Of a stretch of DNA of 64,000 nucleotides, positions 23,998 to 63,983 are shown piece after piece. Where the stretch lies: NCBI GenBank assembly GCA_965368975.1, contig CBDUPA010000007.1, forward strand, positions 217,536 through 281,535. The letters run 5' to 3'. The stretch is from an uncultured bacterium. Lineage in GTDB: Bacteria > Acidobacteriota > Thermoanaerobaculia > Multivoradales > JAHZIX01. Each line of letters begins with the position of its first letter. Positions within the stretch are counted from its first letter, which is position 1. The notes under the pieces were generated by a model. It had not been told where the DNA came from. It saw nothing but the letters and a program-made list of their open reading frames with translations, and ran no database searches. A program made the translations under genes and the position numbers.

Positions 23998-24076
23998 GCC
24001 GAGGTAGCTCAGTTATGGTTAGAGCGCCTGACTGTGGATCAGGAGGTCGGCGGTTCAAACCCGCCCCTCGGTACCA
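23998..24076 (+). tRNA. tRNA-His (GTG), encoded CCA; probable prophage attachment site
   Basis: Acceptor GCCGAGG/CCTCGGT, D stem GCTC/GAGC, anticodon arm CCTGA-CTGTGGA-TCAGG, T arm GGCGG-TTCAAAC-CCGCC, A-CCA. Confidence 0.95.
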
Positions 24077-24238: not shown

Positions 24239-25654
24239 ATGGCATATCGGTCCCGGCACAGACAGAAGCTCACGCAAGCCCTGGTGAAGAAGGTCCGGAA
24301 GGAGCAGCTCCAAGCTTGCGAGGATGCAGCAGGGCGGCGCCTGCCGGATCGGTACATATGGGATTCCGAATCGCCGCTCGGATTGCGGCTCCACGGCACC
24401 GGCGGCGCGAGCTGGGTCCTGAAGCCCTACGCAGTGCAGATGGCCGGTCGCCGCGAGCCGCGGCGGCACACCTTCGGCCTGGTCTCTGACGTGACGCTGG
24501 AAGATGCACAGGACCGGGCGCGGGATCTGTGGGGGAGATACCTGGACGGCGAGGACCCGGTGGGGGAGATTCAGCAGCGCAAGCTTCTGGCTCGGCAGGG
24601 CCGAGCTAGCGACCCGACTGTGGGAGACCTTGCAGAGCGCTACATGAAGGAGGTTGCCGCCAGCAACAAGCCCGCTACACGGCGAGAGAAGCAGAGAGGC
24701 TGGGATCAGGTCGTAAGGCTGATCGGCGAGCGGCAGGTAGCCAAGGTGGACGCTGAGGACATCGAGTTCGTGTTGCGCTCCATTGGTGACGGAAAGCCCG
24801 TCTGGGCGAACCGCGTTCGAAGCCTCCTGTCGCACGCCTTCAACGTTTGCTCGCGCTGGCGCACAGTAGAGGGAGAGAGATGGCGAGAACTCAACGCAAA
24901 CCCGGTTCTAGAGACCGATCCGAACCGTGAGAGAGGTAAGGGTCGCACCTACTCAGATGTCGAACTGAGGGCGATCTGGACAGCCTTGGGTCGGCTTGAG
25001 GGGCAAGACGAGATTGATTGGGTGCTGGCCATTCTGATCCGGATCTTGATCTACACCGGAGCTCGGCCGGGCGAACCCGCCAGCGCGCGCTGGTCGAACT
25101 GGGATCCGACCAAGCAGCTCATCTGGCTCGAGGAGTCGAAAGCGGATCGCGGCGTAGCCCTGGGTCGGCGGATCTACCTTCCGACACAGGTACTGGAGTG
25201 GGTGCCGTACCTCGGTGCGGCACAGAGCGAGTTCATGTTCCCGCGCCGCAAGCTGAATGCCTCCTGGAGACAGGAGCGCCAGAAGGATGCCAGCGTCACG
25301 AAGACGGCCTGGCGGAAGACATGGCAGAAGGTTGCCGAGGAAGCCGGCCTGGTCGAGACTGCGGGTGTCGCGCCGCAGCTGCGTCACCTGCGCAACACCT
25401 GGATCTCCATGGCTCAACAGGCGGGCATCAAGCAGGCTGAGGCGGGATGGATGGCCGGGCATCGGCCCAGGGGTATGACGGCCCACTACACGGCGCAGCC
25501 GGACGAGTACTGGCTTGAGCAAGCAGAGATCGCCGGCGACTTCATCCGGAAGGCGATTGGCGCTCAGCCCTTGTCGGCGTCGTCCTCGGGCTCTGGAAGG
25601 GCTGCGGTGATCACCTTCAAGCCGGGAATCACCCGGCCGTTGTCCGGGATCTGA
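24239..25654 (+). CDS. int: Tyrosine integrase with N-terminal arm-binding domain
   Basis: YIWD...LGLRL...SWVL arm domain; TGARPGE, ESK, RHLRNT, AGH, TAHY catalytic set. Confidence 0.9.
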   Translation: MAYRSRHRQKLTQALVKKVRKEQLQACEDAAGRRLPDRYIWDSESPLGLRLHGTGGASWVLKPYAVQMAGRREPRRHTFGLVSDVTLEDAQDRARDLWGRYLDGEDPVGEIQQRKLLARQGRASDPTVGDLAERYMKEVAASNKPATRREKQRGWDQVVRLIGERQVAKVDAEDIEFVLRSIGDGKPVWANRVRSLLSHAFNVCSRWRTVEGERWRELNANPVLETDPNRERGKGRTYSDVELRAIWTALGRLEGQDEIDWVLAILIRILIYTGARPGEPASARWSNWDPTKQLIWLEESKADRGVALGRRIYLPTQVLEWVPYLGAAQSEFMFPRRKLNASWRQERQKDASVTKTAWRKTWQKVAEEAGLVETAGVAPQLRHLRNTWISMAQQAGIKQAEAGWMAGHRPRGMTAHYTAQPDEYWLEQAEIAGDFIRKAIGAQPLSASSSGSGRAAVITFKPGITRPLSGI

Positions 25655-26037
25655 TAGACGACGATCGGGTCCGGCTCTTCCTTGGCGGCTTCCTCGAGGT
25701 AGTCCTTGGGTCGCCGCAGCTCGGCCAGCCTCAGTAGGCCAGAACTCTGCACCATGGCGTGATAGCCGTCGTTCGGGTTTTGGTCGAATTGCGCGGCGTA
25801 GGTCGGGTCCATCATCCTCAGAGCGTGCTCTGCGTCCTCTTCGAGCGGGAAAGAGGACTCCTGGTAGGCATCGATGTACATGGCCCGGAAAGCGGCGTTC
25901 TCGCGCCGCCAGTTGCAGGGCGTAGCCTTGCAGGGCATCTCGGGATCCAGCACGATCTGGCGCAGGGTCTCTCCAGCAGCTATTCGATCACAGATCTTTC
26001 TTCCCAGTGTCTTGTTGTAGGAGCTGCTGCGCGCCAT
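25564..26037 (-). CDS. Terminase small subunit-like protein
   Basis: KICDRIAAGETLRQIV...MP...WRR...FRAMY HTH of Sf6 gp1-like TerS; C-terminal VYQIPDNGR. Confidence 0.7.
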   Translation of the reverse strand: MARSSSYNKTLGRKICDRIAAGETLRQIVLDPEMPCKATPCNWRRENAAFRAMYIDAYQESSFPLEEDAEHALRMMDPTYAAQFDQNPNDGYHAMVQSSGLLRLAELRRPKDYLEEAAKEEPDPIVVYQIPDNGRVIPGLKVITAALPEPEDDADKG

Positions 26038-26308
26038 AGTCAATCCGGCTGAAAAATTCATCCGGATCGACACCGATGCGGATGAGTATCTCTATCGCCG
26101 TGACCAGGGTCAGAGAGCTGTACCCCTGGAGCTGGTGATAGAGCGTCGACGGCGCCATAGACAGCTGGCTCGCAAGGGAACTGACGGTTTGCCCTTGGCG
26201 CTTGACCTCCTCGCGCAGTAGGCGCCCCAGCGTCTCGGCGGCTGCTCGCGCCATGTTCGCAGGCTCCGCCATTTGGTCGAGAGTATCAGATTTGGATGTT
26301 TCATCCAT
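25988..26308 (-). CDS. XRE-type HTH protein
   Basis: TVSSLASQLSMAPSTLYHQLQG...IGVDPDEFF. Confidence 0.75.
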   Translation of the reverse strand: MDETSKSDTLDQMAEPANMARAAAETLGRLLREEVKRQGQTVSSLASQLSMAPSTLYHQLQGYSSLTLVTAIEILIRIGVDPDEFFSRIDYGAQQLLQQDTGKKDL

Positions 26309-28414: not shown

Positions 28415-28717
28415 ATGCAACACGTGAATTCGGGTTTGGAGTTCAAGGTGCCGGTCACCTGGATTGTCTGCCGCAGTGATGGAAGGGATGAGGGCACCGT
28501 CAAGGTAAAGGCCTATTCCGCCCTGGATGCGGCGCGAGAAGCTGGCGAGCGACTGCATGCGAGCAGCCCGCTGCTATCGGGCCTGGGATGGCCAAGTCAG
28601 ACCGATGTCTACGTGCGCCTGGAGCACGCCACGCGCGGCGACCACTATCGGGTGCAAAGCTGCTGGGAGGTGTCGACGACCGTAAGAGCAATCCGGCCAG
28701 GGGAGGCGGGCCTGTGA
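28415..28717 (+). CDS. Phage hypothetical protein
   Basis: ORF in operon, GTGA overlap with next gene. Confidence 0.55.
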   Translation: MQHVNSGLEFKVPVTWIVCRSDGRDEGTVKVKAYSALDAAREAGERLHASSPLLSGLGWPSQTDVYVRLEHATRGDHYRVQSCWEVSTTVRAIRPGEAGL

Positions 28718-29667
28718 CCACTTCGATCTCCTGGACTGACGAGACCATCAACCCGCTAGTGATGCAGCGCCCAGGCGGCAAGCTCGGGCACTTCTGCGTG
28801 AAGCTCAGCCCAGGCTGTGCGAACTGCTACGCGGCCACGATGTCGGCGCGGAAACTCCCCTCTCGGCCTGCTGGGTTCAAGTACACCGCCAAGGGCGCAG
28901 AGGGTGCGGTGCCAGTCTGCCTGGAAAGCGCGCTCGAGAAGATCAAGCGACCAGGTTCGCCGAGAAGGATGTTTGTCTGCTCGATGACGGATCTGTTCCT
29001 TGATCAGTGGTGGCCTCGGTCGGCGCCGTTCAAGGAATACGCCCAGGCTGCCGACGTGCTAGGGGCTTGCGCGGGGGCCGTCGAGGACGGTCACGTCGTC
29101 CAGATTCTGACCAAGCGGCCCGAAGCAATCCCAGACTGGCTCGGGCGCGTCTTGCAGAGAGATGGCAACCCCCGTCTCATGATCGGCGTCTCGATCGAGA
29201 GTCCGGCGCAGCTGTGGCGCTGGAAAGCTCTTGTCGAGAAGCTCGGCCATACCGCCTGCTCGCTGTGGATCAGCTTCGAACCGCTCCTCGAGGAGATCAC
29301 CCTCGGAGACCTGCGGCGTGCCTTCGCTTCGCGCGTACCGGATTTGGTCGTGCTCGGCGGCGAGTCGGGGCCAGGTGCCAGGCCCTCTGAGCCTCACTGG
29401 TACCGCAACCTGATCACGTGGGCGTCCGCGCGCTCGAAGCGTGTTCCGGTCTGGATGAAGCAGTTCGGAGCCAGACTCAAGGTTGCCGGCACGGACACCT
29501 TCGGCGAATACGGCCCAGGCAGGGAGATCGGAACTTCCGGCTACTACCTGGTCAAGACAGGCAGCAAGGCTGAGGCGCCGGCAAAGTGGCCTGAGTGGGC
29601 TCGTATCCGGCAGCTGCCGGAGTGGGCGCGTGAGGACTTCGGGCACTGCTTCATGGAGCCGGGGTAA
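28714..29667 (+). CDS. Phage Gp37/Gp68 (DUF5131) family protein
   Basis: ISWTDETINP, CVKLSPGCANCYA, FVCSMTDLF, QILTKRP, SFEPLL, GGESGPGARP. Confidence 0.9.
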   Translation: MTTSISWTDETINPLVMQRPGGKLGHFCVKLSPGCANCYAATMSARKLPSRPAGFKYTAKGAEGAVPVCLESALEKIKRPGSPRRMFVCSMTDLFLDQWWPRSAPFKEYAQAADVLGACAGAVEDGHVVQILTKRPEAIPDWLGRVLQRDGNPRLMIGVSIESPAQLWRWKALVEKLGHTACSLWISFEPLLEEITLGDLRRAFASRVPDLVVLGGESGPGARPSEPHWYRNLITWASARSKRVPVWMKQFGARLKVAGTDTFGEYGPGREIGTSGYYLVKTGSKAEAPAKWPEWARIRQLPEWAREDFGHCFMEPG

Positions 29668-29897: not shown

Positions 29898-30337
29898 AGC
29901 GCTCCGCCCCCCCTCGCCGACGGACCCCGCTGAAGCGCGGCAAGCCTCCGACCAGGAAGGCGCGTCTACGAGCGATCACCAAGGACGCCCGCAAGAAGCT
30001 GATGCGCTTCGAGCGGCAGTTCGGGAGCGAAGAGCGTGTCGACTGGATGCAGGCGCAGCACTGCTGCATCTGTGGCACCAGGCCAGTGGACTGTCACCAC
30101 GTCAAGACGCGCGGTGCTGGCGGTACCGCAGACGACATGGTGCCCCTGTGCAGGACCTGTCATCAGATCTGGCACAGCCGCGGGCGCGCGTGGTTCGAGA
30201 ACGAATTCGATATCGACGCCGGCGTGTTGGCACAACGCTACACACGGTGGTGGAGAGAACACCAGAAGCAGGAAGGAGCAAGGCATGAGCACGACACTGC
30301 CGCCACACCAAAAGAAGGGTGGCGTGATGCACGTTGA
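29894..30337 (+). CDS. HNH-like Zn-finger nuclease (DUF968/NinG-like)
   Basis: CCICG...DCHHVKTRGAGG...VPLCRTCH. Confidence 0.75.
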   Translation: MKRSAPPRRRTPLKRGKPPTRKARLRAITKDARKKLMRFERQFGSEERVDWMQAQHCCICGTRPVDCHHVKTRGAGGTADDMVPLCRTCHQIWHSRGRAWFENEFDIDAGVLAQRYTRWWREHQKQEGARHEHDTAATPKEGWRDAR

Positions 30338-31268
30338 CCGGATTGAAGCGGAGGCCTTCGAAGGCGGTGGCGTCTGGGGGCATGCCTACGTACCCGTGCT
30401 GGAAAGCCTGCTCGAGGCAGGGGCGAACCCGCGCATGCATGCCGGTACTTCAGCCGGTGCGATTGTCGCCTTCCTGCGCGCTCTCCGGTACCCACCGAGC
30501 GAGATCGGAAGACTTCAAGAGTCCACCGACTGGGCGAAGTGGGCCCAGATTGATTTCTCGGCTCTGTGGCGCCTTCCGTTCAAGAAGGGGCTGGCCTCGA
30601 CCAAGGTGCCGCGCGAGTGGCTCGAGGAGCGGCTGCTCGATCTCGGCCTGCGCCTGGACCTCACGTTCAGGGAGCTGCAAGAGGCAACCGAGCACCAGCT
30701 GTGCGTAGTCGCAACCCGCTACGCCTGGATCGACGGCCGACCGGATGCTACCCCCCGGGTGTTTTGCCCAGTCCGAACACCGCACGCCGTTGTTGTTGAT
30801 GCCGTCCTGGCTTCGATGGCGGTTCCAGGGCTCTGGCCTCCGGTCCAGGTGCGCGAGCATAAGCGCGCCAGCTACTGGTACTGCGACGGGGGTGCCGGCT
30901 ACAACCACCCGATCGACCTCTTTCACCATCTGCCCGACGAGAAGGTGATCGGCGTTCGCGTCGACACCTCCCGCGAGATCGAGTTCAGGCGCGCCAGCGT
31001 TGAGCCTCGACGCCCGATGCTGGTGCATGCGGTTCGCGCACTAGTGGCAATGCTACGGCGGGAGGCCAACAGGGCTCACGTCGATCGATGGCACCGCATC
31101 GTCCGGATCAACGTCGGGGACCTGCGCGCGCTCGAGTTCGACCTGCCGCCCGAGGACATCGAGGCGCTGCGTAAGGCCGGCCGGAGGGCGTGGAAGAAGT
31201 GGACGGCGCCGGCGCCCAGGATCACCGGTGGCTACGCCTACTTCAGTCAGGCGGAGGTGGAGTCGTGA
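30285..31268 (+). CDS. Patatin-like phospholipase
   Basis: FEGGGVWG, GTSAG, ASMAVP, DGG motifs; start may be 30327. Confidence 0.9.
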   Translation: MSTTLPPHQKKGGVMHVDRIEAEAFEGGGVWGHAYVPVLESLLEAGANPRMHAGTSAGAIVAFLRALRYPPSEIGRLQESTDWAKWAQIDFSALWRLPFKKGLASTKVPREWLEERLLDLGLRLDLTFRELQEATEHQLCVVATRYAWIDGRPDATPRVFCPVRTPHAVVVDAVLASMAVPGLWPPVQVREHKRASYWYCDGGAGYNHPIDLFHHLPDEKVIGVRVDTSREIEFRRASVEPRRPMLVHAVRALVAMLRREANRAHVDRWHRIVRINVGDLRALEFDLPPEDIEALRKAGRRAWKKWTAPAPRITGGYAYFSQAEVES

Positions 31269-35275: not shown

Positions 35276-35449
35276 AGACAACAAGCTCGCGAGCGTTCAG
35301 TTGGCGATCTTCCGAGCGCTGATTGAAACATCAAGACTTACGCTGTGGTTTTGGAGCCCTCTGAGAAATCAGCACTTGACACGGGATCCGACCACGAGGA
35401 AGATCAAAGCACTATGCCTTTTGAAAGCCATTAGGAGGAAGTTGAGAAT

Positions 35450-36859
35450 ATGCGTTACGGACGTCATGTGTGGAATGGTGCGACTCTGCGGCAGTTGACG
35501 ATCTTGGAATTGGCCAACATCCTGGATGAGCAATCGGAGGCGGCCGCGTTGCACATGCCAGCGATGTTGGATCTCTTTCGGTCCAACGAGATTACCGGGG
35601 CGATGGCGGAGCGGCTCGAAGAAGATCAGCTGGACTTGGGTGGACTTTACGGGTTTCGGAAGTCCTACATGCAGCGACGGGCTGGTCGCATCGAGGTACT
35701 AGAGGCGCTAGAGAAGGATCAGTTCCGGGCGCTGTTCGAGTCCGAGCCGGAAGCGGAAACAGCTCCGGTGATCCAGTGGAAGAATCTCGAAGCCGTCGTC
35801 GCGGAGATGGTCAAGCGAAGCCGGAGCACCGTAGATGCCCAGCCGGAGGCTGGGTGGTGGTGGGCCAAGCTGGCGTACGACCTTGCGCATCGCATGAGGC
35901 GTCGATGGGAGGGTGAGAGTCCCGAATCGAAGCTCGAAGTCGCGCTAGGACCCGGCGGTGGACTCCAGGCCTCCGGGAGCCTGGATGAGGACGGCCCGCT
36001 GGGGCACGACTCAGAGAATGAAGCCGAGGTGGAGGCGTGGCGGTTTCTTGAGGCTCGGAGCCTTCGCGCTCTGGCCAATGCCACGCGCGCTATCGGACGT
36101 CTGACGGAAGCAGGGCGACTCTTTGGCGAGGCCGAGCAGTGCGTGGCCGCGAGGGCTTCCGGAGGAGCGTTGACTGCGGAGGTCTGTGACTTGCTCTCGC
36201 TGGAGGCTTCCTTGGAGACTGACAGGGGCAACTGGGAGCGAGGCATAGAGCTTCTGGAACTGCACGGGCAGTTGGCGGACGGAGGGGAGTGGCACAAGGG
36301 ACGCATCAAACTGGCCAAGTTGCACTACGAGCGCGACGACGTGGAGACGGCTATCGCGATAAGCCTAGACTTGGTTCAGCAGATGCCGGCAGGGCGAATG
36401 AGGGATGCCGCTACCCTTAATGTGTGCCTCTACCTGGTTGAGGCGGGGCATGTGCAAGATGCAGAGGATCGACTTCAGGCGAACAAGCTCGCTGGCGTCC
36501 CGGACGAGCGCATCTCTTGGATTCGCGCGAAGATCTTGGCCGCAAAGGGCAGCAGCGAGGCGGAGCGCCACTTCGAGATCGCGCTCAACCGCCTACTGGC
36601 GAAGAGAAACGGACCTCTTGCAGCACTGGTTTGGCTTGAATGGGGGCTCTGGCTCGTGGAGATTAACCGACCCCAGGATGCTGCCGAGAAGGCCAGCCTG
36701 GCAGGAGCGGTCTTGCAGGTGACGGACATGGAAAGAGAGGGCCTAGCCGCTGCCGTGCTAGACCTGCAGGCCAAGCTGCAGCAGCAGGCCCTCACGCTAA
36801 AGGTGGCCGCTCGGCTGCGCTCTGTCTTTGAGGCAGCCTGCAGTGGGCGGCGAGCCTAA
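35450..36859 (+). CDS. TPR-like helical repeat protein (candidate peptide receptor)
   Basis: RBS AGGAGG; tandem helical repeats (LANATRAIGRLTEAGRLF; LAKLHYERDDVETAI; YLVEAGHVQDA); no TM or signal. Confidence 0.8.
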   Translation: MRYGRHVWNGATLRQLTILELANILDEQSEAAALHMPAMLDLFRSNEITGAMAERLEEDQLDLGGLYGFRKSYMQRRAGRIEVLEALEKDQFRALFESEPEAETAPVIQWKNLEAVVAEMVKRSRSTVDAQPEAGWWWAKLAYDLAHRMRRRWEGESPESKLEVALGPGGGLQASGSLDEDGPLGHDSENEAEVEAWRFLEARSLRALANATRAIGRLTEAGRLFGEAEQCVAARASGGALTAEVCDLLSLEASLETDRGNWERGIELLELHGQLADGGEWHKGRIKLAKLHYERDDVETAIAISLDLVQQMPAGRMRDAATLNVCLYLVEAGHVQDAEDRLQANKLAGVPDERISWIRAKILAAKGSSEAERHFEIALNRLLAKRNGPLAALVWLEWGLWLVEINRPQDAAEKASLAGAVLQVTDMEREGLAAAVLDLQAKLQQQALTLKVAARLRSVFEAACSGRRA

Positions 36860-36960
36860 CCGTCAGGATCAATGGCGGCGGACTTGTTGCCCTCGTCTTC
36901 CGCCTGCGATGCCTCGCCACCACCGAACACGGTCTCTACGATCCAAATCAGAAGGTCCAT
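36856..36960 (-). CDS. 34-aa peptide MDLLIWIVETVFGGGEASQAEDEGNKSAAIDPDG
   Basis: GGAGGA RBS 7 nt upstream of ATG; stop overlaps the TPR gene stop; C-terminal motif shared with neighbour. Confidence 0.75.
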   Translation of the reverse strand: MDLLIWIVETVFGGGEASQAEDEGNKSAAIDPDG

Positions 36961-37133
36961 AACACTTTCCTCCAACCCGGCGAGTCGTCGATACACCACC
37001 CCCATGGCGGTGGACGCCCGCCGAAGTCCTAACTCTTCAAGGTACCAAAGCAGAGTCGGCAACGCATGCCCGGCTCTGCTTAAGTACGCGAGTTAGGGGA
37101 GTGGTAGAGATCTGGAGAAGAGCGGGCGAGGGC

Positions 37134-37733
37134 TTAGGCTGGTTGACCGTTCGGGTCGATGGCCGCAGAGGCGCCGTTCGGATCGATCATCACGGACTTG
37201 TTGCCGTTCGGATCGATGGCAGCGGATCGCCCATCGGGGTCGATCATTACCGAGGCGCCATCCGGGTCGATCATTACGGACTTGGCGATCACGAACCCGT
37301 CGGGGTCGATGGCTGACGAGATGCCATCCGGATCAATCATCGCGGACCGACCGTTGGGGTCCAGTGCTGGCGACATCCCGTTCGGGTCGATCGCGGCAGA
37401 CTTGCCATCGGGGTCAATCACTACCGAGCGTCCATTCGGGTCGATCGCGACCGACTTGGCGACGAGGCAGCCGTCCGGATCTATGGCCACCGATCGGCCG
37501 TTTGGATCGATCATTGCCGAAGCTCCGCCAGGATGACTGGCCACCGATTGACCGTTGGGGTCGATGGCTACAGACGCGCCGTTGGGATCGATCGCGACTG
37601 AGCGACCATTTGGGTCGATGGCAGAGGAAAGGCCATCCGGGTCGATCATCACTGATCGGCCGTGCGGATCGATGAAGGTACCGGCGTTGTCGTGAGCGAA
37701 GACAGTCAGAAGAGTCAAGAGCAGTAGTTCCAC
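37134..37733 (-). CDS. Multi-repeat peptide precursor, 19 x xSxxIDP[D/N]G
   Basis: GGAGGA RBS, GTG start, hydrophobic N-terminus, then nonamer repeats with synonymously diverged codons. Confidence 0.85.
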   Translation of the reverse strand: MELLLLTLLTVFAHDNAGTFIDPHGRSVMIDPDGLSSAIDPNGRSVAIDPNGASVAIDPNGQSVASHPGGASAMIDPNGRSVAIDPDGCLVAKSVAIDPNGRSVVIDPDGKSAAIDPNGMSPALDPNGRSAMIDPDGISSAIDPDGFVIAKSVMIDPDGASVMIDPDGRSAAIDPNGNKSVMIDPNGASAAIDPNGQPA

Positions 37734-37881
37734 GGAAGGCTCCTCCAGAGCATGGGTGGGTGATGGCGAGTACTATATCTGAGAGTCTGGTGGTGGTGAT
37801 TTCTCTTGAGTACGTGAGTTAGGATTGGGGCGCGGTTCGAGGTGACCTAGGACGAGCTAGCCAGCAGGAGGATGGTGATCC

Positions 37882-38901
37882 GTGGACAAGAAGAACTCTG
37901 TTGTTTATAGCGCTGGTTTCACGGTGCGAGACAATTCTGAGCTGAGCTCTCTATGCTTGGTCCATGATCAGATCCTGTTGCCAGCAACTGGTGACCCTCC
38001 GGAACTCTCAGCAGGTGTGGATGACACTCCTGAGGAAGTCGCTGTGAATTACATCTTGATGACGATTTTTGGGAAAGCGCCTGAATCATTTCTCAGTTGG
38101 GAGCGGCGTCATGCCTTGCTCTTTGATGAGTCAGTTCTTCAGCGCCTCGAGCCTCCAGTTGGCCGAGATTCGTTTCTTGATGCAGACTTGGAGGTAAGAC
38201 TACAGAGGTCTCAGATACGAAAAGTCTTCTTTGGAATGATTGAAGATGTTCTTGAGTACTCACGTGGACTGGGGTCGACAAGTACGCCGATGAAGGTGCT
38301 TGGTAAATTAGATTCTGAGGCTCGGAGGCATGCTGTTTACTTCTGGGAAACTAGCTACCTGGCGATGCACTTATCCCGCAAGGATCTGCCCAAAGACTTA
38401 CCTTCAGTTGGCGTCGCTTCAGCCTCGGACCAACCGACGAACACTCAGCTTGCCGGCTCTGTGATTGAAATCGTCCTCCCCAGCCTTCCCGACCTCCACC
38501 CCGAACAGATCCTGGAACTCCGCCGCAAGGTAGCTGACACCCGCGAGGGATTCAGCCTCCACCTGCAGACCTTGACCGCCGATCTTGAGAAGCTGGTTCA
38601 AGAAGGCGAAGATCTCGAAGAGATCAAGCGCCACGCAGACAGCATCGCTGCCCGACAGCTCTACCCCGCCTACCGGGAGTTCCGCCGACAGCTGTTCTCG
38701 GAGAAGGCCGTTGCTGCAGCGAAGGTACTTGGCGGTGGCGGTTTGGCTCTCAACCTTGCAGCTACGGGTAACTGGTGGGGAGCCCTGGCAGCGTTCGGTG
38801 TGACCTCTCTACTGAGCACCGTACCGCAGCTCAAGGAGAGCTTGACCAACAAGAGGCAGGCTTTCCAGTTCATGCGGAAGGTGGAGGAGGTAGGGGAATA
38901 G
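37882..38901 (+). CDS. Accessory (moron) hypothetical protein with C-terminal hydrophobic hairpin
   Basis: RBS AGGAGG; AT-richer 5' half; VLGGGGLALNLAATGNWWGALAAFGV. Confidence 0.7.
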   Translation: MDKKNSVVYSAGFTVRDNSELSSLCLVHDQILLPATGDPPELSAGVDDTPEEVAVNYILMTIFGKAPESFLSWERRHALLFDESVLQRLEPPVGRDSFLDADLEVRLQRSQIRKVFFGMIEDVLEYSRGLGSTSTPMKVLGKLDSEARRHAVYFWETSYLAMHLSRKDLPKDLPSVGVASASDQPTNTQLAGSVIEIVLPSLPDLHPEQILELRRKVADTREGFSLHLQTLTADLEKLVQEGEDLEEIKRHADSIAARQLYPAYREFRRQLFSEKAVAAAKVLGGGGLALNLAATGNWWGALAAFGVTSLLSTVPQLKESLTNKRQAFQFMRKVEEVGE

Positions 38902-39340: not shown

Positions 39341-39429
39341 TGAGTAGAGTGTAGCGCTACTCAAGAATGCTTGTATAGTGCTTGTACTCTACAATCGGAG
39401 TGCGGGCAGCGTTTCCGTATCCTGCCGGC

Positions 39430-39600
39430 ATGAGCGAACAACCGAGCATGCCGATCAAGAGAGGGAACCTGAGACAGGTAGTCGTCTACCTGCACGACGA
39501 TGAGCTGGAAGCCGTTGCTAAGGAGGCGAAGCGGCGGAGATGGTCGCGATCAGAGGTGATGCGGCAGTTGGTTCGAGATGCGTTTGGGATCGAGACCTAG
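39430..39600 (+). CDS. CopG-like RHH protein
   Basis: QVVVYLHDDELEAVAKEAKRRRWSRSEVMRQLV. Confidence 0.75.
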   Translation: MSEQPSMPIKRGNLRQVVVYLHDDELEAVAKEAKRRRWSRSEVMRQLVRDAFGIET

Positions 39601-39650: not shown

Positions 39651-40709
39651 CTATGAGTCGGTCGCCCCGTTTTCGTCCGATTCTTCTATCTCCACCGCGT
39701 CCTTGAGATGTTGAGGGACGTTGCGAGCTGCTTCGAGTTGAGTCTTGGTTAGTTGGCCCGGTGGGATGTCGGCGTCAGTCAGGTTGGTGCCGGTGAGGTC
39801 GGCGTTCTTGGGGCCGGCGAGTCCGCCGAGGTAGCCACTGTCGTAGTCTGCGCGGGTAAGGGCAGCGCGGGTCAGTTTGGCGCGGGTGAGGTTAGCGCCA
39901 GTGAGGTTGGCGTAGTAGAAGTTCGAGTTGGTGAGGTTGGCGCTAGTGAGGTTAGCCTTGGTGAGGTTGGCGTACTTGAGAAAGGAGTGAGTAACACTGG
40001 CTTCGGTGAGGTTGGCTTTGGTGAGGTTGGCTTCGGTGAGGTTGGCTTTGGTGAGGTTGGCGCGGGTGAGGTTAGCGCCGCTAAGGTTGGCATTGGCGAG
40101 GTTGCAGAAAGGCATTAAAACACTGTGCAGGTATGTTCCCTGCAGTGATATCGGGAGTGCGGCTTCTGACCTTCTGGTCAGACGGCAGAGAACAGAGCAG
40201 ATCGCATTCACTTCTGTGGGAGCCGGGCCGTCTTTTGCATCATCCTCTCGAGGAACAGGGTGCCGCTCCCGAACAAAGGCACAGAGCACCTCAACCACTG
40301 GATCAAGGTAGTCCTTAGAGTTGTCCATTGCGATCTTTTCGAGAGCGAAGATTCCGCCTAGGCGAATCGCAAGCTTGTCGTCCTCAGCCAACTGCTCGAC
40401 AGCCTTGCTGTATCTATCCGTGATCTGGCCGCGCTCCTGGACCTGCAGCTGCGCCTGCTGTACTTGCAGCTGGTTCTCCTGGACCTGGATCCGACGATAG
40501 GCGATATACAGACCAAGGAGCACAACCAAGCCGCCTACGCCAGCGATGCTCTCCGAGAGTCTTGCGCGGCTGTCCGGTTCATTGAGGATCGTGCTCACCA
40601 CAAGCGCAATGCCGAGCCCGCCGGCGACGGCCAGTACACGGTACCAGGGCTCAAGAACAGTACGTAGCTCCGCTGCTAGGAGATATCCAAGCTTCTGAAC
40701 GGTGTTCAT
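39651..40709 (-). CDS. Membrane-anchored pentapeptide-repeat protein
   Basis: Two TM helices; ITDRYSKAVEQL...RLGGIFALEKIA; A-N-L-T-x repeats. Confidence 0.9.
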   Translation of the reverse strand: MNTVQKLGYLLAAELRTVLEPWYRVLAVAGGLGIALVVSTILNEPDSRARLSESIAGVGGLVVLLGLYIAYRRIQVQENQLQVQQAQLQVQERGQITDRYSKAVEQLAEDDKLAIRLGGIFALEKIAMDNSKDYLDPVVEVLCAFVRERHPVPREDDAKDGPAPTEVNAICSVLCRLTRRSEAALPISLQGTYLHSVLMPFCNLANANLSGANLTRANLTKANLTEANLTKANLTEASVTHSFLKYANLTKANLTSANLTNSNFYYANLTGANLTRAKLTRAALTRADYDSGYLGGLAGPKNADLTGTNLTDADIPPGQLTKTQLEAARNVPQHLKDAVEIEESDENGATDS

Positions 40710-60744: not shown

Positions 60745-62421
60745 TCAGCGCCGCGGTGACGCCCAGAGGTTCCCGCCGCGGCCGTCCGTCAGCACCCGCA
60801 TGGCGCCCGCGATCGCGTCCGCCTCGTCGTCCACCTCGACGGGTCGCGTGCCAGTGAGCGCGTGGAGTCGCCGGACGAAATCATCCGTCCAGTCGGCCTC
60901 GACGACCGCCATGTTGCCGGCTTCCAGCTGAGTCAGAGAGGGAATCCAGTTGGTGTACTTGCGGCCCGTCGGCCTTCCCGACTCGACCGGATACCCGGCC
61001 AGCGCGTCGAGGGCCATCTGCTCGGCCACCTCCTCGCCGATCTTGCCGAGATCCTCCCAGAGCCAGATCGTGCAGTTGTGCCCGTCCGCCTCTGCCGCCT
61101 CGCGGTAGATCTTCCTGCGCTCAGCCCAGCCGACCTGGACGCGAATCACGTCTACGACGTAGTACGCGGGCTTTCCGGCCGCCTCGGCGGATTCGGAGTA
61201 CCCCATCAGGACGCCGGCCGTCCAGTCGCCGTCACCAGGCGTGTAGGCCGCATCCCAGCTCCGGCAGTACACCAGGTCGTCAGGTAGCTGATCCCGTCGA
61301 ACGCGCTGCCACCAGTCGCTGCACCAGACCTTTCCAGCCTCCTGGGTGATCTTCCAGTTGCCCTTCAGGAGCTGCTCGCGCAGCACGAGCGGGAGGCCGT
61401 TCAGCGCGGCCAGGTAGCGGCTGTTGCCCTCCAGGAGGATCTTGTTGTCGTAGACGGATGAGCGGATGAACGTAAAGCTGAGCGGCCTGTCCTCCGCCTC
61501 GGTGACCGAAATTCCTGGCTCGTTCTGAACGACCCAGGCGGACGCCTCGTCGCGGGATGCAAACCACTGCAGCTTGTTGGTTTTCTTGTTCCGCACGAAC
61601 CAGCGGACGACGCCGTCGCGATCCTCGCGGGCGTACCCATCGTCGTCGAGGTACCAGTCGATGAACTGGTGAATCCACCCGCCCGGATCCTCTGGGGCTG
61701 CCGGGTTGACGGAGGCTCGAACCAGGAGCGGGTATCCCGCGTCGTTGCGACCTCTCGAGGTCAGCTCCCAGTAGTCCGCCTCCCGATGCTCCTCGAGCTG
61801 ATCGAAGCAGATCAGGCCCACCTGGGCACCGCGAAAGTTCTTGGCAGTGCCCTCGTCCTTGAGATGGCCGAAGTGGACCTGGGCGCCGGTCGAGAAAAGG
61901 TGCCTCTTGGTGGGGTTCTGGCGCTCTCCTAGCCAGAACTTCTTGGATCTCCGACCCTCGTTGAGTCGCTCGTAGAACCGAATTGACTCATCCCAGAGCG
62001 CGCCTGGCTTGGTGAGTGAGCTTTCAAGTCGCCGAAGGAAGATCGCTCTGAATCCGGGGACATGGAGACCCCGCAGGGTCTCCATCAGCAGGGCGAAGGT
62101 CTTCCCTCCGGCTACTGATCCACCAAAAAAAACCACGTCTGCTGGGCTCGCCAAGAACCGCGTCTGTGGCCCCGGTTGAGGGCCCGCGAGCCTGACATGC
62201 GACGGCGCTGGCGGGAGCTCTACATGGGGAATCCGCTTGGCGATAGCTCGGCAGGTCCGACAGGGCTTGCTGGCGATGTCGCCGGCGGGACCCTTCAGCG
62301 AGGCCCCGCAGATCGCTTCCTCGTCGCTCCGGCCTGGAGCCAGGTGCCACGCACGCCCTCTCCGGCCGACCATTGGCCAGAACTTCTTGAAGGCATCGGC
62401 GAGGGAGGTCTCAACTGCCAC
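60745..62421 (-). CDS. Terminase large subunit
   Basis: PQPGPQTRFL, GGSVAGGKT Walker A, RSWDAA, DDEADA nuclease motifs. Confidence 0.95.
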   Translation of the reverse strand: MAVETSLADAFKKFWPMVGRRGRAWHLAPGRSDEEAICGASLKGPAGDIASKPCRTCRAIAKRIPHVELPPAPSHVRLAGPQPGPQTRFLASPADVVFFGGSVAGGKTFALLMETLRGLHVPGFRAIFLRRLESSLTKPGALWDESIRFYERLNEGRRSKKFWLGERQNPTKRHLFSTGAQVHFGHLKDEGTAKNFRGAQVGLICFDQLEEHREADYWELTSRGRNDAGYPLLVRASVNPAAPEDPGGWIHQFIDWYLDDDGYAREDRDGVVRWFVRNKKTNKLQWFASRDEASAWVVQNEPGISVTEAEDRPLSFTFIRSSVYDNKILLEGNSRYLAALNGLPLVLREQLLKGNWKITQEAGKVWCSDWWQRVRRDQLPDDLVYCRSWDAAYTPGDGDWTAGVLMGYSESAEAAGKPAYYVVDVIRVQVGWAERRKIYREAAEADGHNCTIWLWEDLGKIGEEVAEQMALDALAGYPVESGRPTGRKYTNWIPSLTQLEAGNMAVVEADWTDDFVRRLHALTGTRPVEVDDEADAIAGAMRVLTDGRGGNLWASPRR

Positions 62422-63470: not shown

Positions 63471-63983
63471 ATGGCTGATGAAGAGCAGGTAGAGATATTG
63501 CTGCGCGGCGTGAAGGAGTGGAACGAGTGGCGTAGCAAGAGACCCGACTCGATCCCTGTCAGAGGGATTGACTTCCGAGAGGCGGGCCTTCACGGACCTG
63601 ATCTCCGCGGGGTGAACCTCGAGTCGGCGGACCTTAGGGGGGTGAACCTTCGCAGCGCAAACCTCGCAGAGGCAAGCCTCGAAGGCGCGAAACTCGCTGC
63701 AGCAGACCTTTCCGATGCCGACCTCAGTGGAGCGAATCTCAGTTACGCTCAACTTGATGGAGCAAATCTGGACGAGGCAGTTCTCGCGTCGGCAAACCTT
63801 CGAAGCGCAAACCTCAGCGGTGCGACTCTCCGGGGAACGGATCTTAGAGAGGCGGATCTTGCCTTTGCGGATCTCAGCCAAGCTACAACCGGGGCGGCGG
63901 GGGCCCTGCGGATCCGCCGACTGTTCCGCGTGTCAAGGGTCGGGGTGCCTATTCCGACGAATCCGACCGGGTATTCCGACTGA
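63471..63983 (+). pseudogene. Pentapeptide-repeat protein, apparently interrupted near 63900
   Basis: EILLRGVKEWNEWR start and A-x-L repeats, then abrupt read-through into IS-like sequence. Confidence 0.6.

What the first reader, a model, noticed from the sequence alone, without database searches (positions are those of the whole stretch)
35450..37733. Candidate prophage peptide-communication system: TPR receptor plus IDP[D/N]G peptide genes
Seen: a cytoplasmic TPR-like protein converges, with overlapping stop codons, on a 34-aa ORF (hydrophobic N-terminus, acidic linker, C-terminal KSAAIDPDG). Next to it is a second gene made of 19 variants of that motif. Both have GGAGGA RBSs and similar starts (MDLLIWIVETVF / MELLLLTLLTVF). 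Known: RRNPP systems, including phage arbitrium AimR/AimP, pair a TPR receptor with an adjacent exported propeptide whose C-terminus is the signal; they are characterised in Bacillota. Inferred: an analogous system in a diderm, probably acidobacterial, phage that could steer lysis/lysogeny or tap host signalling. No clear HTH is visible in the TPR protein, so output may be by protein-protein contact (Rap-like).
Basis: partly seen in the sequence, partly recalled or inferred. Interest (0 to 1): 0.9.

Follow-up and report, generated by a model that had tools for sequence, protein, structure and literature searches.

The report
Prophage peptide plus TPR receptor module
A prophage of an acidobacterium carries a helical-repeat (TPR) protein next to two genes for a short peptide ending in Asp-Pro-Asp/Asn-Gly, and this pairing belongs to a large, undescribed host gene family that looks like a peptide-sensing switch, often wired to alternative sigma factors.

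Summary
A 469-aa protein (35450-36859, +) converges on a 34-aa ORF ending SAAIDPDG. Their stop codons share two bases. Next to it, a 199-aa ORF carries 19 distinct nonapeptide units of that motif.

The pairing is not chance:
- The same genome has about 20 paralogous TPR genes, and about 14 have a small [G/S]xx[ILM]DPxG ORF beside them.
- 15 motif ORFs lie within 1 kb of these genes, against 0.8 expected.
- 38 of 41 genomes of the order carry the TPR family, usually 17-38 matches each.
- 16 of 29 sampled flanks there hold the strict motif.

In the host versions the N-terminus is a zinc anti-sigma domain resembling ChrR. An ECF sigma gene sits directly upstream in at least 26 of 60 loci. Many of the small proteins have Sec-type signal peptides, judged by eye.

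A complex prediction places S27-P32 of the phage peptide in the TPR groove, on the family's most conserved residues. The score was 0.85 and the best control 0.01.

The phage receptor lacks the anti-sigma domain, an HTH and a neighbouring sigma gene, so its output is unknown. It is not a member of the RRNPP or arbitrium families. Secretion, processing and any lysis/lysogeny role remain untested.

The parts
35450..36859 (+). Phage TPR protein, 469 aa, the putative peptide receptor. It is a divergent member of the order-wide TPR family.
   Evidence: ORF. It aligns colinearly with paralogues. AF2 gives mean pLDDT 74.8. The best non-self hit among 1.84 billion representatives has E 1e-10.
35433..35439 (+). 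Shine-Dalgarno-like AGGAGGA, 10 nt before the ATG of the TPR gene.
   Evidence: Sequence read.
35450..35779 (+). N-terminal region of about 110 aa with unknown function. It is predicted helical at low confidence. It is not detectably an anti-sigma domain and not an HTH.
   Evidence: AF2 pLDDT is below 50 for residues 1-108. hhalign against the ZAS profile A3 gives probability 0.3. There is no meaningful PDB hit and no Pfam hit. The region is shared with the C28 prophage paralogue, whose alignment starts at residue 12.
35777..36844 (+). TPR superhelix, residues about 110-465, with the predicted peptide groove (N210, S254, N324, R354, W357, L393, R429, E430).
   Evidence: AF2 model. Foldseek finds generic TPR matches. 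Predicted contacts fall on conserved columns.
36856..36960 (-). 34-aa ORF: a hydrophobic Trp helix, an acidic/Gly linker, then the C-terminal octapeptide SAAIDPDG. It is the putative ligand precursor.
   Evidence: Homologous small ORFs with the same start lie at C1:682145-682288, where a stop sits 4 codons upstream, and at C28:2276-2389. Both have SD motifs.
36859..36882 (-). Codons for the terminal octapeptide S-A-A-I-D-P-D-G, which matches the family core [G/S]xx[ILM]DP[ND]G.
   Evidence: Motif table from 44 instances. Peptide residues 27-32 have the lowest predicted error in the complex.
36968..36973 (-). GGAGGA, 7 nt upstream of the ATG of the 34-aa ORF.
   Evidence: Sequence read.
37134..37733 (-). 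199-aa ORF: a 13-residue hydrophobic N-terminus followed by 19 distinct units of x-S-x-x-I-D-P-[N/D]-G. It is either a multi-copy ligand precursor or a multivalent ligand.
   Evidence: Single-sequence AF2 is uninformative, with pLDDT 40.5.
37146..37685 (-). The repeat array, residues 17-196. The eight-residue cores are separated by spacers of 1, 2 or 5 residues.
   Evidence: TRF detects only a weak 27-nt DNA repeat.
37741..37746 (-). GGAGGA, 7 nt upstream of the GTG start of the repeat ORF.
   Evidence: Sequence read.

Best explanation
The three genes form a phage-borne copy of a receptor-ligand module that is hugely expanded in the host's order. The host is Acidobacteriota and its closest rpoB match is Thermoanaerobaculia.

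**The ligand.** It is a short peptide core, [G/S]-x-x-[I/L/M]-D-P-[N/D]-G. In the window it reads S-A-A-I-D-P-D-G. The core sits at or near the C-terminus of a small protein. It is predicted to lie in the concave groove of the soluble TPR protein encoded next to it.

**Host versions.** The TPR protein carries an N-terminal zinc anti-sigma domain, and an ECF sigma gene often sits directly upstream. I therefore infer that peptide binding controls release or capture of that sigma factor.

**Phage version.** The TPR groove and the peptide are kept. The N-terminal domain is replaced by one of unknown function. A 19-unit poly-peptide gene is added. Its units closely resemble the host's own 4x RSAMIDPNG precursor on contig C23. 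Most likely the prophage uses the pair as a peptide-dependent switch, and the 19-unit gene supplies many ligand copies, for its own receptor, for host receptors, or for both.

**Shown:**
- the gene linkage
- the family expansion
- purifying selection on the repeats
- the ZAS and ECF association of the host versions
- a passing complex prediction

**Inferred:**
- actual binding
- proteolytic release of octapeptides
- export and re-entry
- the output of the phage receptor
- any link to lysis/lysogeny
For: **Linkage within the genome.** An HMM finds 20 TPR paralogues. Of the best 16, about 14 have an adjacent DPxG small ORF. 15 motif ORFs lie within 1 kb, against 0.8 expected.

**Linkage across relatives.**
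- 38 of 41 genomes of the order have the TPR family.
- The strict motif is in 16 of 29 flanks of +-1.5 kb. By eye, about 22 of 29 have it if variants are allowed.
- In twelve 15-kb loci, all 9 motif frames lie within 610 bp of a TPR gene.
- One metagenome contig shows the same order, with a signal-peptide ORF carrying 3x QIDP[ND]G directly upstream of a TPR-family gene.

**Conserved core.** Among 44 motif instances, G is at position -4 in 32 and S in 7. I, L or M is at -1 in 34. N or D is at +2 in 32.

**Multi-copy precursors recur.** Host C23 has 4 copies, C6 has 3, C12 has 2, L039 has 3, and L010, L013 and L024 have 2 each. The phage has 19, with spacers of 1, 2 or 5 residues.

**Complex prediction.**
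- The median score was 0.85 and the best of 3 controls was 0.01.
- That mark was reached by 58 of 80 solved complexes and 2 of 110 mismatched pairs. These counts hold only roughly because my own alignment was used.
- The runs agree in at least 62% of contacts. Partner pLDDT is at least 46.
- Peptide residues 23-34 contact N210 (23/25), S254 (20/25), N324 (22/25), R354 (20/25) and W357 (24/25). The fractions give how many of the 25 aligned family members share that residue.

**Anti-sigma link in host versions.**
- The N-terminal profile has invariant H5, H30, C35 and C38.
- It hits ChrR (E 3.3e-5), RslA (9e-5) and DdvA (6e-4).
- An ECF sigma gene lies upstream on the same strand in 26 of 60 loci.
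- No member of the 25-sequence alignment has a TM segment or a signal peptide.

**Export of host small proteins.** 12 of 17 relatives' loci encode a small ORF that starts with a Sec-type signal peptide, judged by eye.

**A second prophage.** C28 in the same genome has the same convergent TPR plus small-ORF pair. The two phage receptors group together in a quick tree, with support 97 but on long branches.
Against: - Nothing shows that any of these ORFs is translated, exported or cleaved. No RNA data were available.
- The phage small ORF and the repeat ORF lack a canonical signal peptide. They have no basic n-region.
- The phage receptor lacks the H/C zinc ligands and shows no similarity to the anti-sigma profile. 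No sigma gene lies in the prophage. The sigma-based mechanism therefore cannot simply be transferred to it.
- In this genome only 1 of 20 paralogues has an adjacent sigma gene.
- 13 of 29 relatives' flanks lack the strict motif. Sampled TPR loci in other families of the class have sigma genes but no DPxG ORF.
- Adjacent genes inherit together, so linkage among paralogues is not independent evidence of binding.
- The complex score is only the model's own confidence, and TPR-peptide complexes are common among solved structures.
- The AF2 model of the repeat protein shows a weak periodic beta pattern that would also fit a solenoid.
- A cytoplasmic receptor paired with an exported ligand requires an uptake route. 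OppA-type binding proteins exist, with 5 found, but no transporter is linked to the loci.
Confidence: 0.55

Rival explanations
1. The pair is purely intracellular and there is no cell-to-cell signal. The small protein stays in the cytoplasm and acts as a stoichiometric regulator of the TPR protein, like an anti-anti-sigma factor. The phage 19-unit protein would be a multivalent sponge or decoy. It would titrate host TPR anti-sigma paralogues, for example the C23 receptor whose own ligand is RSAMIDPNG, and so reprogramme host ECF regulons during infection or lysogeny.
For: - The phage ORFs and many small ORFs in this genome have no canonical signal peptide.
- In the complex model the N-terminal hydrophobic residues 4, 7-8 and 11-12 also touch the receptor. 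This suggests the whole 34-aa product could bind.
- The tandem IDP[ND]G pattern occurs only in this genome among 41 relatives, on host C23, prophage C7 and prophage remnant C1. The phage units therefore mimic a host-specific peptide.
- All TPR members examined are soluble.
Against: - 12 of 17 relatives' loci encode a small protein with a clear Sec-type signal peptide, as do host C23, C2 and C22. In the ancestral module the ligand therefore leaves the cytoplasm.
- Spacers of variable length between the cores suggest processing into short units.
Confidence: 0.22
2. The small DPxG proteins are outputs rather than inputs. They would be secreted, membrane-active or structural products, with an amphipathic Trp helix and a turn motif. 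They would be co-transcribed with a sigma/anti-sigma pair that senses something else. The 199-aa protein would be a beta-roll or solenoid-like repeat protein built from a nonapeptide, in the manner of RTX repeats.
For: - ECF operons often include their own target genes (general knowledge).
- The Trp-rich amphipathic helix that follows the signal peptide resembles membrane-active peptides.
- AF2 draws a 4-residue strand every 9 residues in the repeat protein, though with pLDDT 40.5.
- An unrelated 9-residue xDPDG repeat ORF occurs in metagenome loci L174 and L181 with no TPR gene in the locus.
- The hypervariability would fit an arms-race effector.
Against: - The complex prediction puts precisely the conserved core into the groove, onto the conserved Asn, Arg and Trp residues.
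- The repeated forms duplicate only the DPxG core and not the helix.
- The motif sits at the extreme C-terminus in 12 of 32 small ORFs, and within 2 residues of it in another 7. That placement suits TPR recognition of a peptide end.
- The linkage persists in 19 of 20 loci of this genome that have no adjacent sigma gene.
Confidence: 0.15
3. The repeat ORF and the small ORF are RiPP precursors. They would have a multi-core peptide and a leader-like N-terminus, be modified by enzymes encoded elsewhere, and use the TPR protein as a recognition or scaffold factor.
For: - The architecture is multi-core, with a shared N-terminal leader-like segment.
- Ser and Asp lie in each core, and Asn-Gly and Asp-Gly are reactive dipeptides (recalled chemistry).
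Against: - No radical-SAM, ATP-grasp, YcaO, lanthionine, methyltransferase or peptidase-transporter gene recurs beside the 16 paralogous loci. BLAST clustering of 143 neighbours found no shared third gene.
- Pfam scans of neighbours found only sigma factors, one trypsin-like peptidase at C6, pentapeptide proteins and unrelated genes.
Confidence: 0.05
4. The small ORF and the repeat ORF are non-coding or chance frames in GC-rich DNA.
For: - GC3 of the two ORFs (0.69-0.70) is below that of most genes in the window.
- There is no database homologue of similar length for the repeat ORF.
Against: - The codon-position pattern of the repeats shows selection on this frame.
- Strong SD motifs precede the starts.
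- Paralogous small ORFs with the same start and the same C-terminal core occur at C1, C28 and about a dozen TPR loci.
Confidence: 0.03

Closest known systems
RRNPP/RRNPPA peptide quorum-sensing systems (Rap-Phr, NprR, PlcR-PapR, PrgX, Rgg, phage AimR-AimP arbitrium)
   Same: - A soluble cytoplasmic TPR-type protein is encoded next to a small (pro)peptide gene.
- The active part of the peptide lies at or near the C-terminus.
- There are many paralogous pairs per genome.
- Copies sit on prophages.
- Asn-rich groove contacts are predicted.
   Different: - There is no HTH and no Rap-type N-terminal domain.
- Host receptors carry a ZAS anti-sigma domain and pair with ECF sigma factors.
- The host is a diderm of Acidobacteriota. 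The RRNPP_detector abstract describes RRNPP systems as a feature of Gram-positive Firmicutes (PMC10075063: abstract and term search only).
- All paralogues share a DPxG core.
- Fold similarity is generic TPR only.
Zinc-binding anti-sigma factors (ZAS: ChrR, RslA, RsrA, DdvA) with their ECF sigma partners
   Same: - The host-family N-terminus has H-x24-H-x3/4-C-x2-C. Its profile hits ChrR, RslA and DdvA.
- The sigma gene lies directly upstream.
- That the ChrR zinc ligands are H6, H31, C35 and C38 is recalled from memory, not from a call.
   Different: - The sensor domain is a roughly 350-aa TPR superhelix, not a cupin or a membrane-anchored domain.
- A small secreted-peptide gene belongs to the operon.
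- The phage copy in the window lacks the zinc ligands and any detectable ASD similarity, and has no sigma neighbour.
ECF42-type sigma factors with a fused C-terminal TPR extension
   Same: A TPR module is associated with regulation of an ECF sigma factor (passage in PMC7826278).
   Different: Here the TPR sits on a separate anti-sigma-like protein and is not fused to the sigma factor. A peptide partner gene is present.
Multi-copy peptide precursors (yeast alpha-factor type; multi-core RiPP precursors)
   Same: One ORF holds 19 tandem cores separated by short variable spacers, after a common N-terminal segment.
   Different: No processing protease or modification enzyme is linked, apart from one trypsin-like peptidase at the host C6 locus. 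All 19 cores differ in sequence. The comparison itself rests on recall.
RTX-type nonapeptide beta-roll repeats
   Same: The period is nine residues, with conserved Asp and Gly in a turn and a short hydrophobic strand.
   Different: The motif is different (xSxxIDP[ND]G against GGxGxDxUx, the latter recalled). There is no Pfam RTX hit, no confident fold and no type I secretion genes nearby.

Membership tests
RRNPP / arbitrium (AimR-AimP) | Receptor with a TPR-type peptide-binding domain | tested here: met
   The AF2 model has a confident helical-repeat region at residues 110-465. 23 of 25 family members hit Pfam TPR_12, although the window protein itself has 0 Pfam hits.
RRNPP / arbitrium (AimR-AimP) | N-terminal HTH DNA-binding domain (or the Rap-type 3-helix effector domain) | tested here: not met
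   There is no Pfam, NCBIfam or PHROG hit. There is no meaningful PDB sequence hit for residues 1-110. AF2 confidence is low for this region.
RRNPP / arbitrium (AimR-AimP) | Adjacent small ORF encoding an exported propeptide whose C-terminal part is the signal | tested here: inconclusive
   The adjacent small ORF with a conserved C-terminal core is present. Relatives have Sec signal peptides at 12 of 17 loci, judged by eye. The phage ORFs have none. Export and processing are untested.
RRNPP / arbitrium (AimR-AimP) | Sequence or structural homology to known RRNPP receptors beyond generic TPR | tested here: not met
   The PDB profile search returns designed TPRs, OGT, LGN and kinesin light chain. 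In Foldseek the first RRNPP entry (Rap of pLS20 with Phr*) is at rank 32, with TMq 0.41 and 9% identity.
RRNPP / arbitrium (AimR-AimP) | Peptide controls the lysis/lysogeny decision (arbitrium) | not testable with these tools
   There are no expression or induction data. No RNA run is listed.
ZAS anti-sigma factor with cognate ECF sigma | N-terminal H-x3-C-x2-C zinc motif within an anti-sigma domain | tested here: not met
   For the window protein there is no Cys motif, and hhalign against the ASD profile gives probability 0.3. For the host family the feature is met. 16 of 25 members have the motif, and profile A3 hits ChrR at E 3.3e-5.
ZAS anti-sigma factor with cognate ECF sigma | ECF sigma gene co-located, usually directly upstream | tested here: not met
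   No sigma-like ORF lies in the window or on C28. For the family, the feature is met in 26 of 60 loci by a strict rule, but in only 1 of 20 loci in this genome.
ZAS anti-sigma factor with cognate ECF sigma | Physical sequestration of the sigma factor | not tested
DPxG-peptide / TPR module of the host's order (family defined here) | TPR protein of about 430-520 aa homologous over the TPR region, with the conserved groove residues | tested here: met
   The A2 profile scores the window protein at E 2.2e-92 (it is one of the 25 sequences in that profile). N210, N324, R354 and W357 are present.
DPxG-peptide / TPR module of the host's order (family defined here) | Adjacent small ORF with a hydrophobic Trp helix and the [G/S]xx[ILM]DP[ND]G core near the C-terminus | tested here: met
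   The 34-aa ORF ends SAAIDPDG.

The most novel reading that the evidence does not exclude
Acidobacteria of this order may run dozens of parallel peptide-pheromone channels. In each channel a secreted octapeptide ending in DP[N/D]G would be sensed in the cytoplasm by a TPR anti-sigma factor, which then frees an ECF sigma factor. That would be the first RRNPP-like peptide signalling logic in a diderm and a new way to control ECF sigma factors.

Temperate phages would have captured the module. This prophage keeps a private receptor-peptide pair for its own decisions. It also encodes a 19-variant poly-peptide 'master key' that floods or jams the host's channels.
Probability: 0.2. Interest if true: 0.95.

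Novelty: new variant of a known kind. Interest (0 to 1): 0.8.

Why it matters
Peptide signalling through cytoplasmic TPR receptors is currently described for Firmicutes and their mobile elements. ECF sigma factors are mostly thought to respond through membrane anti-sigma factors, fused extensions or kinases.

A soluble ZAS-TPR anti-sigma family with its own small secreted peptide, present at 17-38 matches per genome in an under-studied acidobacterial order, would join these two fields. It offers a directly testable system:
- short unmodified peptides
- soluble receptors
- defined sigma partners

The prophage copies, including a 19-unit precursor that mimics a host peptide, suggest phages of diderm soil and sediment bacteria may listen to or manipulate such signals. 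That bears on the open question of whether arbitrium-like communication exists outside the Bacillota.

My literature searches found no description of this family. Those searches were made, plus passages of PMC7826278 and PMC10075063. Supplementary tables of the ECF reclassification paper were closed, and they could list the sigma group concerned.

Tried and rejected
**Searches that found nothing**
- Word-based homologue search with TPR469 found only itself. With the repeat ORF it found nothing of 109-349 aa. HMMER's composition filters may hide repeat proteins, so this is not evidence of uniqueness.
- The search for related loci with alignment A2 failed in both collections because no stretch was conserved enough.
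- TPR469 alone found nothing in viral contigs.
- The tandem-motif DNA pattern found nothing in viral contigs.
- The Atlas search with the repeat ORF gave no usable hit.
- PADLOC has no model for the TPR, the repeat ORF, the 339-aa ORF or the pentapeptide protein.

**Results that decide nothing**
- Foldseek against the PDB gave only generic TPR folds.
- Single-sequence AF2 of the repeat ORF gave pLDDT 40.5. It decides nothing between precursor and solenoid.
- No RNA holder is listed for the region. Expression could not be examined and read laying was not used.
- The careful tree search did not finish in the time allowed. Only the quick tree was used, and the phage pair sits on long branches.

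**Ideas considered and set aside**
- BLAST clustering of 143 neighbours of 16 paralogous loci found no conserved third gene such as a transporter, protease or modifying enzyme. I therefore gave the RiPP idea low weight.
- I considered receptor-peptide covariation. With only about 30 pairs of paralogues that inherit together, I judged it not informative.
- A conserved ECF-type promoter upstream of the peptide genes was considered but not searched for.
- The longer 68-aa TTG form of the small ORF was set aside. It lacks an SD motif, and the C1 homologue cannot extend upstream.

- Supplementary files of papers were not opened.

**Unpublished genome**
- The phylum tally of 10 of 151 genomes includes the unpublished genome G063, which has one weak match. 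No other claim rests on it.

Full report
**What is in the window**

The stated features are all present.
- A 469-aa ORF runs 35450-36859 (+), behind AGGAGGA.
- A 34-aa ORF runs 36856-36960 (-), behind GGAGGA plus 7 nt. It consists of a hydrophobic segment (MDLLIWIVETVF), a Gly/acidic linker and the end KSAAIDPDG.
- The two stop codons share two bases.
- A 199-aa ORF runs 37134-37733 (-), with a GTG start behind GGAGGA plus 7 nt. It has a similar hydrophobic start and 19 nonapeptide units.
- 18 of the units read x-S-x-x-[I/L]-D-P-[N/D/H]-G and one is degenerate (SHPGG). The spacer between the eight-residue cores is 1, 2 or 5 residues.

The repeat frame is under purifying selection.
- All 19 units differ in peptide and in DNA.
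- Identity between units is 0.39 at third codon positions, against 0.73 and 0.78 at first and second positions.
- The invariant Ser, Asp, Pro and Gly use 4, 2, 3 and 4 different codons.
- Tandem Repeats Finder sees only a weak 27-nt repeat.

These are therefore old repeats kept at the protein level, not a recent DNA duplication.

**Context**

The region lies in a prophage. Landmarks along the + strand are:
- tRNA-His at 23998-24076
- a tyrosine integrase at 24239-25654
- an HTH protein, a DUF5131 protein and a patatin-like phospholipase
- a 720-aa protein with a weak DnaA_N match

On the minus strand lie an M15 endolysin, a Laminin_G_3 (concanavalin-like lectin) domain protein, a 2088-aa ORF, and capsid, portal and large terminase genes.

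The three genes sit between the plus-strand early block and the minus-strand lysis and structural block. This stretch has lower GC, 0.57-0.61 against 0.646 for the whole window.

The host is Acidobacteriota. Its rpoB is 75% identical to a Thermoanaerobaculia MAG and 72% to an Acidobacteriota MAG.

**The pairing is a gene family, not a coincidence**

A six-frame scan of the window's own genome (7.1 Mb, 59 contigs) found further small ORFs with the same core.
- C23 encodes a classical signal peptide followed by 4x RSAMIDPNG.
- C6 encodes 3x GAALDPNG.
- C1 encodes a 47-aa ORF that starts MDLVIW and has two or three cores.
- C28 encodes a 37-aa ORF that starts MWTELLIW and contains SMDPNG.

The C23, C6 and C28 ORFs each lie beside a TPR protein of 433-472 aa. 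These proteins are colinear, distant homologues of the window protein.

C28 is a second prophage-like locus. It has the same convergent, overlapping arrangement and an ORF homologous to the window's M15 endolysin. C1 is a prophage remnant, with an M15 fragment and a pentapeptide-repeat gene related to those in the window.

An HMM of the four TPR proteins finds 20 paralogues in the genome. About 14 of the best 16 have a DPxG small ORF next to them, usually directly upstream on the same strand.

Two controls:
- With a relaxed motif, 83 of 70,900 small ORFs match. Of these, 15 lie within 1 kb of a paralogue, against 0.8 expected.
- With the strict motif [GS]xx[ILMFVW]DPxG, 80 of 141,319 small frames match, and again 15 lie within 1 kb.

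**Across relatives**

- 38 of 41 genomes of the same order have the TPR family, typically 17-38 matches per genome.
- In 29 relatives' loci with +-1.5 kb flanks, 16 hold the strict motif in a small frame. By eye, about 22 do if variants such as ADPNG, HDPSG or WDPGG are counted.
- In twelve 15-kb loci, all nine strict-motif frames lie within 610 bp of a TPR gene. None lies in the remaining DNA.
- In a phylum sample, 10 of 151 genomes match at E <= 1e-25. All but one are in the same class, and the tally includes the unpublished G063.
- Sampled loci from other families of the class show the sigma gene but no DPxG ORF.

The small proteins share a common plan.
- Many have a Sec-type signal peptide: 12 of 17 loci, judged by eye with no predictor run.
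- A Trp-rich amphipathic helix follows.
- Then comes a linker.
- Then comes the core. Among 44 instances, G is at -4 in 32 and S in 7, I/L/M is at -1 in 34, D-P is invariant by construction of the search, and N/D is at +2 in 32.
- The last motif ends exactly at the C-terminus in 12 of 32 small ORFs.

The window's MDLLIWIVETVF corresponds to the Trp helix, not to a signal peptide.

**What the TPR proteins are**

- 23 of 25 aligned members hit Pfam TPR_12. The window protein itself hits nothing.
- None of the 25 has a TM segment or a signal peptide.
- 16 of 25 have H-x3/4-C-x2-C near the N-terminus.
- A profile of 13 N-terminal domains has invariant H5, H30, C35 and C38. It matches the anti-sigma factors ChrR (2q1z_B, E 3.3e-5), RslA (3hug_B, 9e-5) and DdvA (8rlz_A, 6e-4). 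6 of the 13 reach Pfam zf-HC2 at E <= 1.
- An ECF sigma gene lies directly upstream on the same strand in 26 of 60 loci by a strict rule. About ten more have overlapping frames.
- Several loci read small ORF, then sigma, then TPR. Examples are L021, L023, L024, L029, L129, L130 and C2 of this genome.

The host family is therefore a soluble ZAS-TPR anti-sigma family with a co-encoded small peptide. Passages of the ECF reclassification paper mention TPRs only as a fused extension (ECF42) or on a FecR-like factor (ECF267). The paper also notes that unrecognised soluble anti-sigma factors probably exist (passages only, supplements not seen).

**The phage copy differs**

- TPR469 and its C28 sister lack the Cys ligands.
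- Neither matches the anti-sigma profile (hhalign probabilities 0.3 and 0.2).
- TPR469 has no PDB relative for residues 1-110. AF2 models that part at pLDDT below 50.
- No sigma-like ORF lies in the window or on C28. Only 1 of 20 paralogues in this genome has one beside it.
- TPR469 is nearly an orphan. Among 1.84 billion representative proteins, the best non-self hit has E 1e-10 at 30% identity, over the TPR part only.
- The two phage receptors group together in a quick tree, with support 97, but both are long branches.

The output of the phage receptor is therefore unknown.

**Does the receptor bind the peptide?**

One complex prediction was run, with TPR469 plus its alignment against the 34-aa product.
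- The three runs scored 0.88, 0.85 and 0.63 (median 0.85).
- The three controls scored 0.01, 0.00 and 0.00.
- The mark was reached by 58 of 80 solved complexes and 2 of 110 mismatched pairs. These counts hold only roughly here because my own alignment was used.
- The runs agree in at least 62% of contacts. Partner pLDDT is at least 46.
- Peptide residues 23-34 contact the concave face, with the lowest error for S27-P32. Hydrophobic residues 4, 7-8 and 11-12 also touch.

The contacted receptor positions include the most conserved columns of the family: N210 (23/25), S254 (20/25), N324 (22/25), R354 (20/25), W357 (24/25), L393 (22/25), R429 (21/25) and E430 (22/25). Positions facing the variable peptide residues (287, 290, 293, 294, 320, 327, 328) vary.

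This fits a conserved clamp for DPxG plus variable specificity pockets. It remains a model's confidence and not a measurement.

**The 19-unit gene**

- The tandem pattern I-D-P-[N/D]-G, four residues, I-D-P-[N/D]-G occurs in only this genome among 41 relatives. It is on host C23, prophage C7 and remnant C1.
- It does not occur in viral contigs.
- It occurs in 11 metagenome stretches. One of them (L178) is a signal-peptide ORF with three QIDP[ND]G cores directly upstream of a TPR-family gene.
- The phage units (for example RSAMIDPDG and ASAMIDPNG) are one residue away from the host C23 unit RSAMIDPNG.

The gene is therefore either an amplified precursor for the phage's own receptor or a mimic of a host ligand. 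Single-sequence AF2 gives pLDDT 40.5, with a weak strand every nine residues. A solenoid fold cannot be excluded.

**Mechanism I commit to**

This is a cognate ligand-receptor pair in which the octapeptide core binds the TPR groove. In host versions, binding gates an ECF sigma factor through the ZAS domain. In the phage, binding gates an unknown partner through a different N-terminal domain.

Whether the ligand acts after export or inside the cell is open. For export:
- Host precursors carry signal peptides.
- Multi-copy precursors recur.
- The genome has five OppA-type binding proteins.

For action inside the cell:
- The phage ORFs have no canonical signal peptide.
- The whole 34-aa product contacts the receptor in the model.

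**Comparison with known systems**

The module works like RRNPP or arbitrium in its logic, but it fails the membership tests. It has no HTH or Rap domain and no specific homology. The host family passes the ZAS and ECF tests, but the window protein does not. I therefore file it as a new variant of peptide/TPR-receptor signalling.

Searches of the held literature found no description of it. I used the terms RRNPP with Acidobacteria; DPNG with tetratricopeptide; ECF with anti-sigma, tetratricopeptide and Acidobacteria; Thermoanaerobaculia with prophage; and RRNPP with Gram-negative.

Noticed in passing
window 39651-40709 (-); also 63471-63983 (+), L001 7089-7994 and C1:393301-394215: A 352-aa protein with an N-terminal hydrophobic region and pentapeptide repeats (Pfam Pentapeptide, E 4e-27) sits directly downstream of the M15 endolysin. 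A paralogue of 50% identity and two more distant ones lie elsewhere in the genome. One of these is beside the C1 small DPxG ORF in a prophage remnant. Its role in the phage is unknown.
   Followed up: partly
window 37882-38901 (+): A 339-aa ORF is transcribed divergently from the repeat gene. It has no Pfam, PHROG, NCBIfam or PADLOC hit. The Atlas feature search points to DUF6236 clusters with score 0.98 but low recognition (1621). This is a lead only.
   Followed up: partly
window 39382-39600 (+): A 72-aa ORF has a sequence that looks like a ribbon-helix-helix (CopG-like) protein, judged by eye. A 40%-identical copy lies near the pentapeptide paralogue at C1:395713-395886. It was not scanned against families.
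   Followed up: no
window 28588-29667 (+) and 30036-31268 (+): The prophage early region encodes a DUF5131 protein (phrog_2045; it also matches PADLOC candidates PDC-M41B and PDC-M30B) and a patatin-like phospholipase (it matches a PADLOC phospholipase effector, E 5.6e-8). These may be prophage-borne defence genes.
   Followed up: partly
window 23998-24076 (+) and 24239-25654 (+): tRNA-His lies immediately upstream of the tyrosine integrase, which is the likely attachment site. The other prophage end was not located and may lie beyond the window.
   Followed up: no
window 25564-26073 (-): An Sf6-type small terminase-like ORF (Pfam E 2.7e-14) lies next to the integrase, far from the large terminase at 60745-62421. 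This fits a circularly permuted gene order once the prophage is excised.
   Followed up: no
L003 6245-7162 (genome C6): A trypsin-like peptidase gene (Trypsin_2) lies just upstream of the host 3x GRGAALDPNG precursor and its TPR gene. It is a candidate processing protease that would cut after Arg.
   Followed up: no
L002 1466-4096 (genome C23): A pair of ORFs that look like a response regulator and a histidine kinase, judged by eye and not scanned against families, lies directly upstream of the host TPR472 gene, which converges on the 4x RSAMIDPNG precursor. This may be a second signalling layer at that locus.
   Followed up: no
L174 107-691 and L181 8868-9452 (metagenome loci): A 194-aa frame is built from a different nine-residue repeat (G-[A/I]-[G/D]-P-D-G-V-S-V), and no TPR-family gene lies in the locus. 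Nine-residue xDPDG repeat frames therefore exist outside this module. Whether this one is a real gene is unknown.
   Followed up: no
neighbours of TPR paralogues: C12:234510-247049, C22:154-8583, C6:267505-270447: Several paralogous TPR-peptide loci lie beside very large ORFs of 980 to about 4180 aa. One of them has Chlamydia PMP repeats. These may be target genes of the modules.
   Followed up: no
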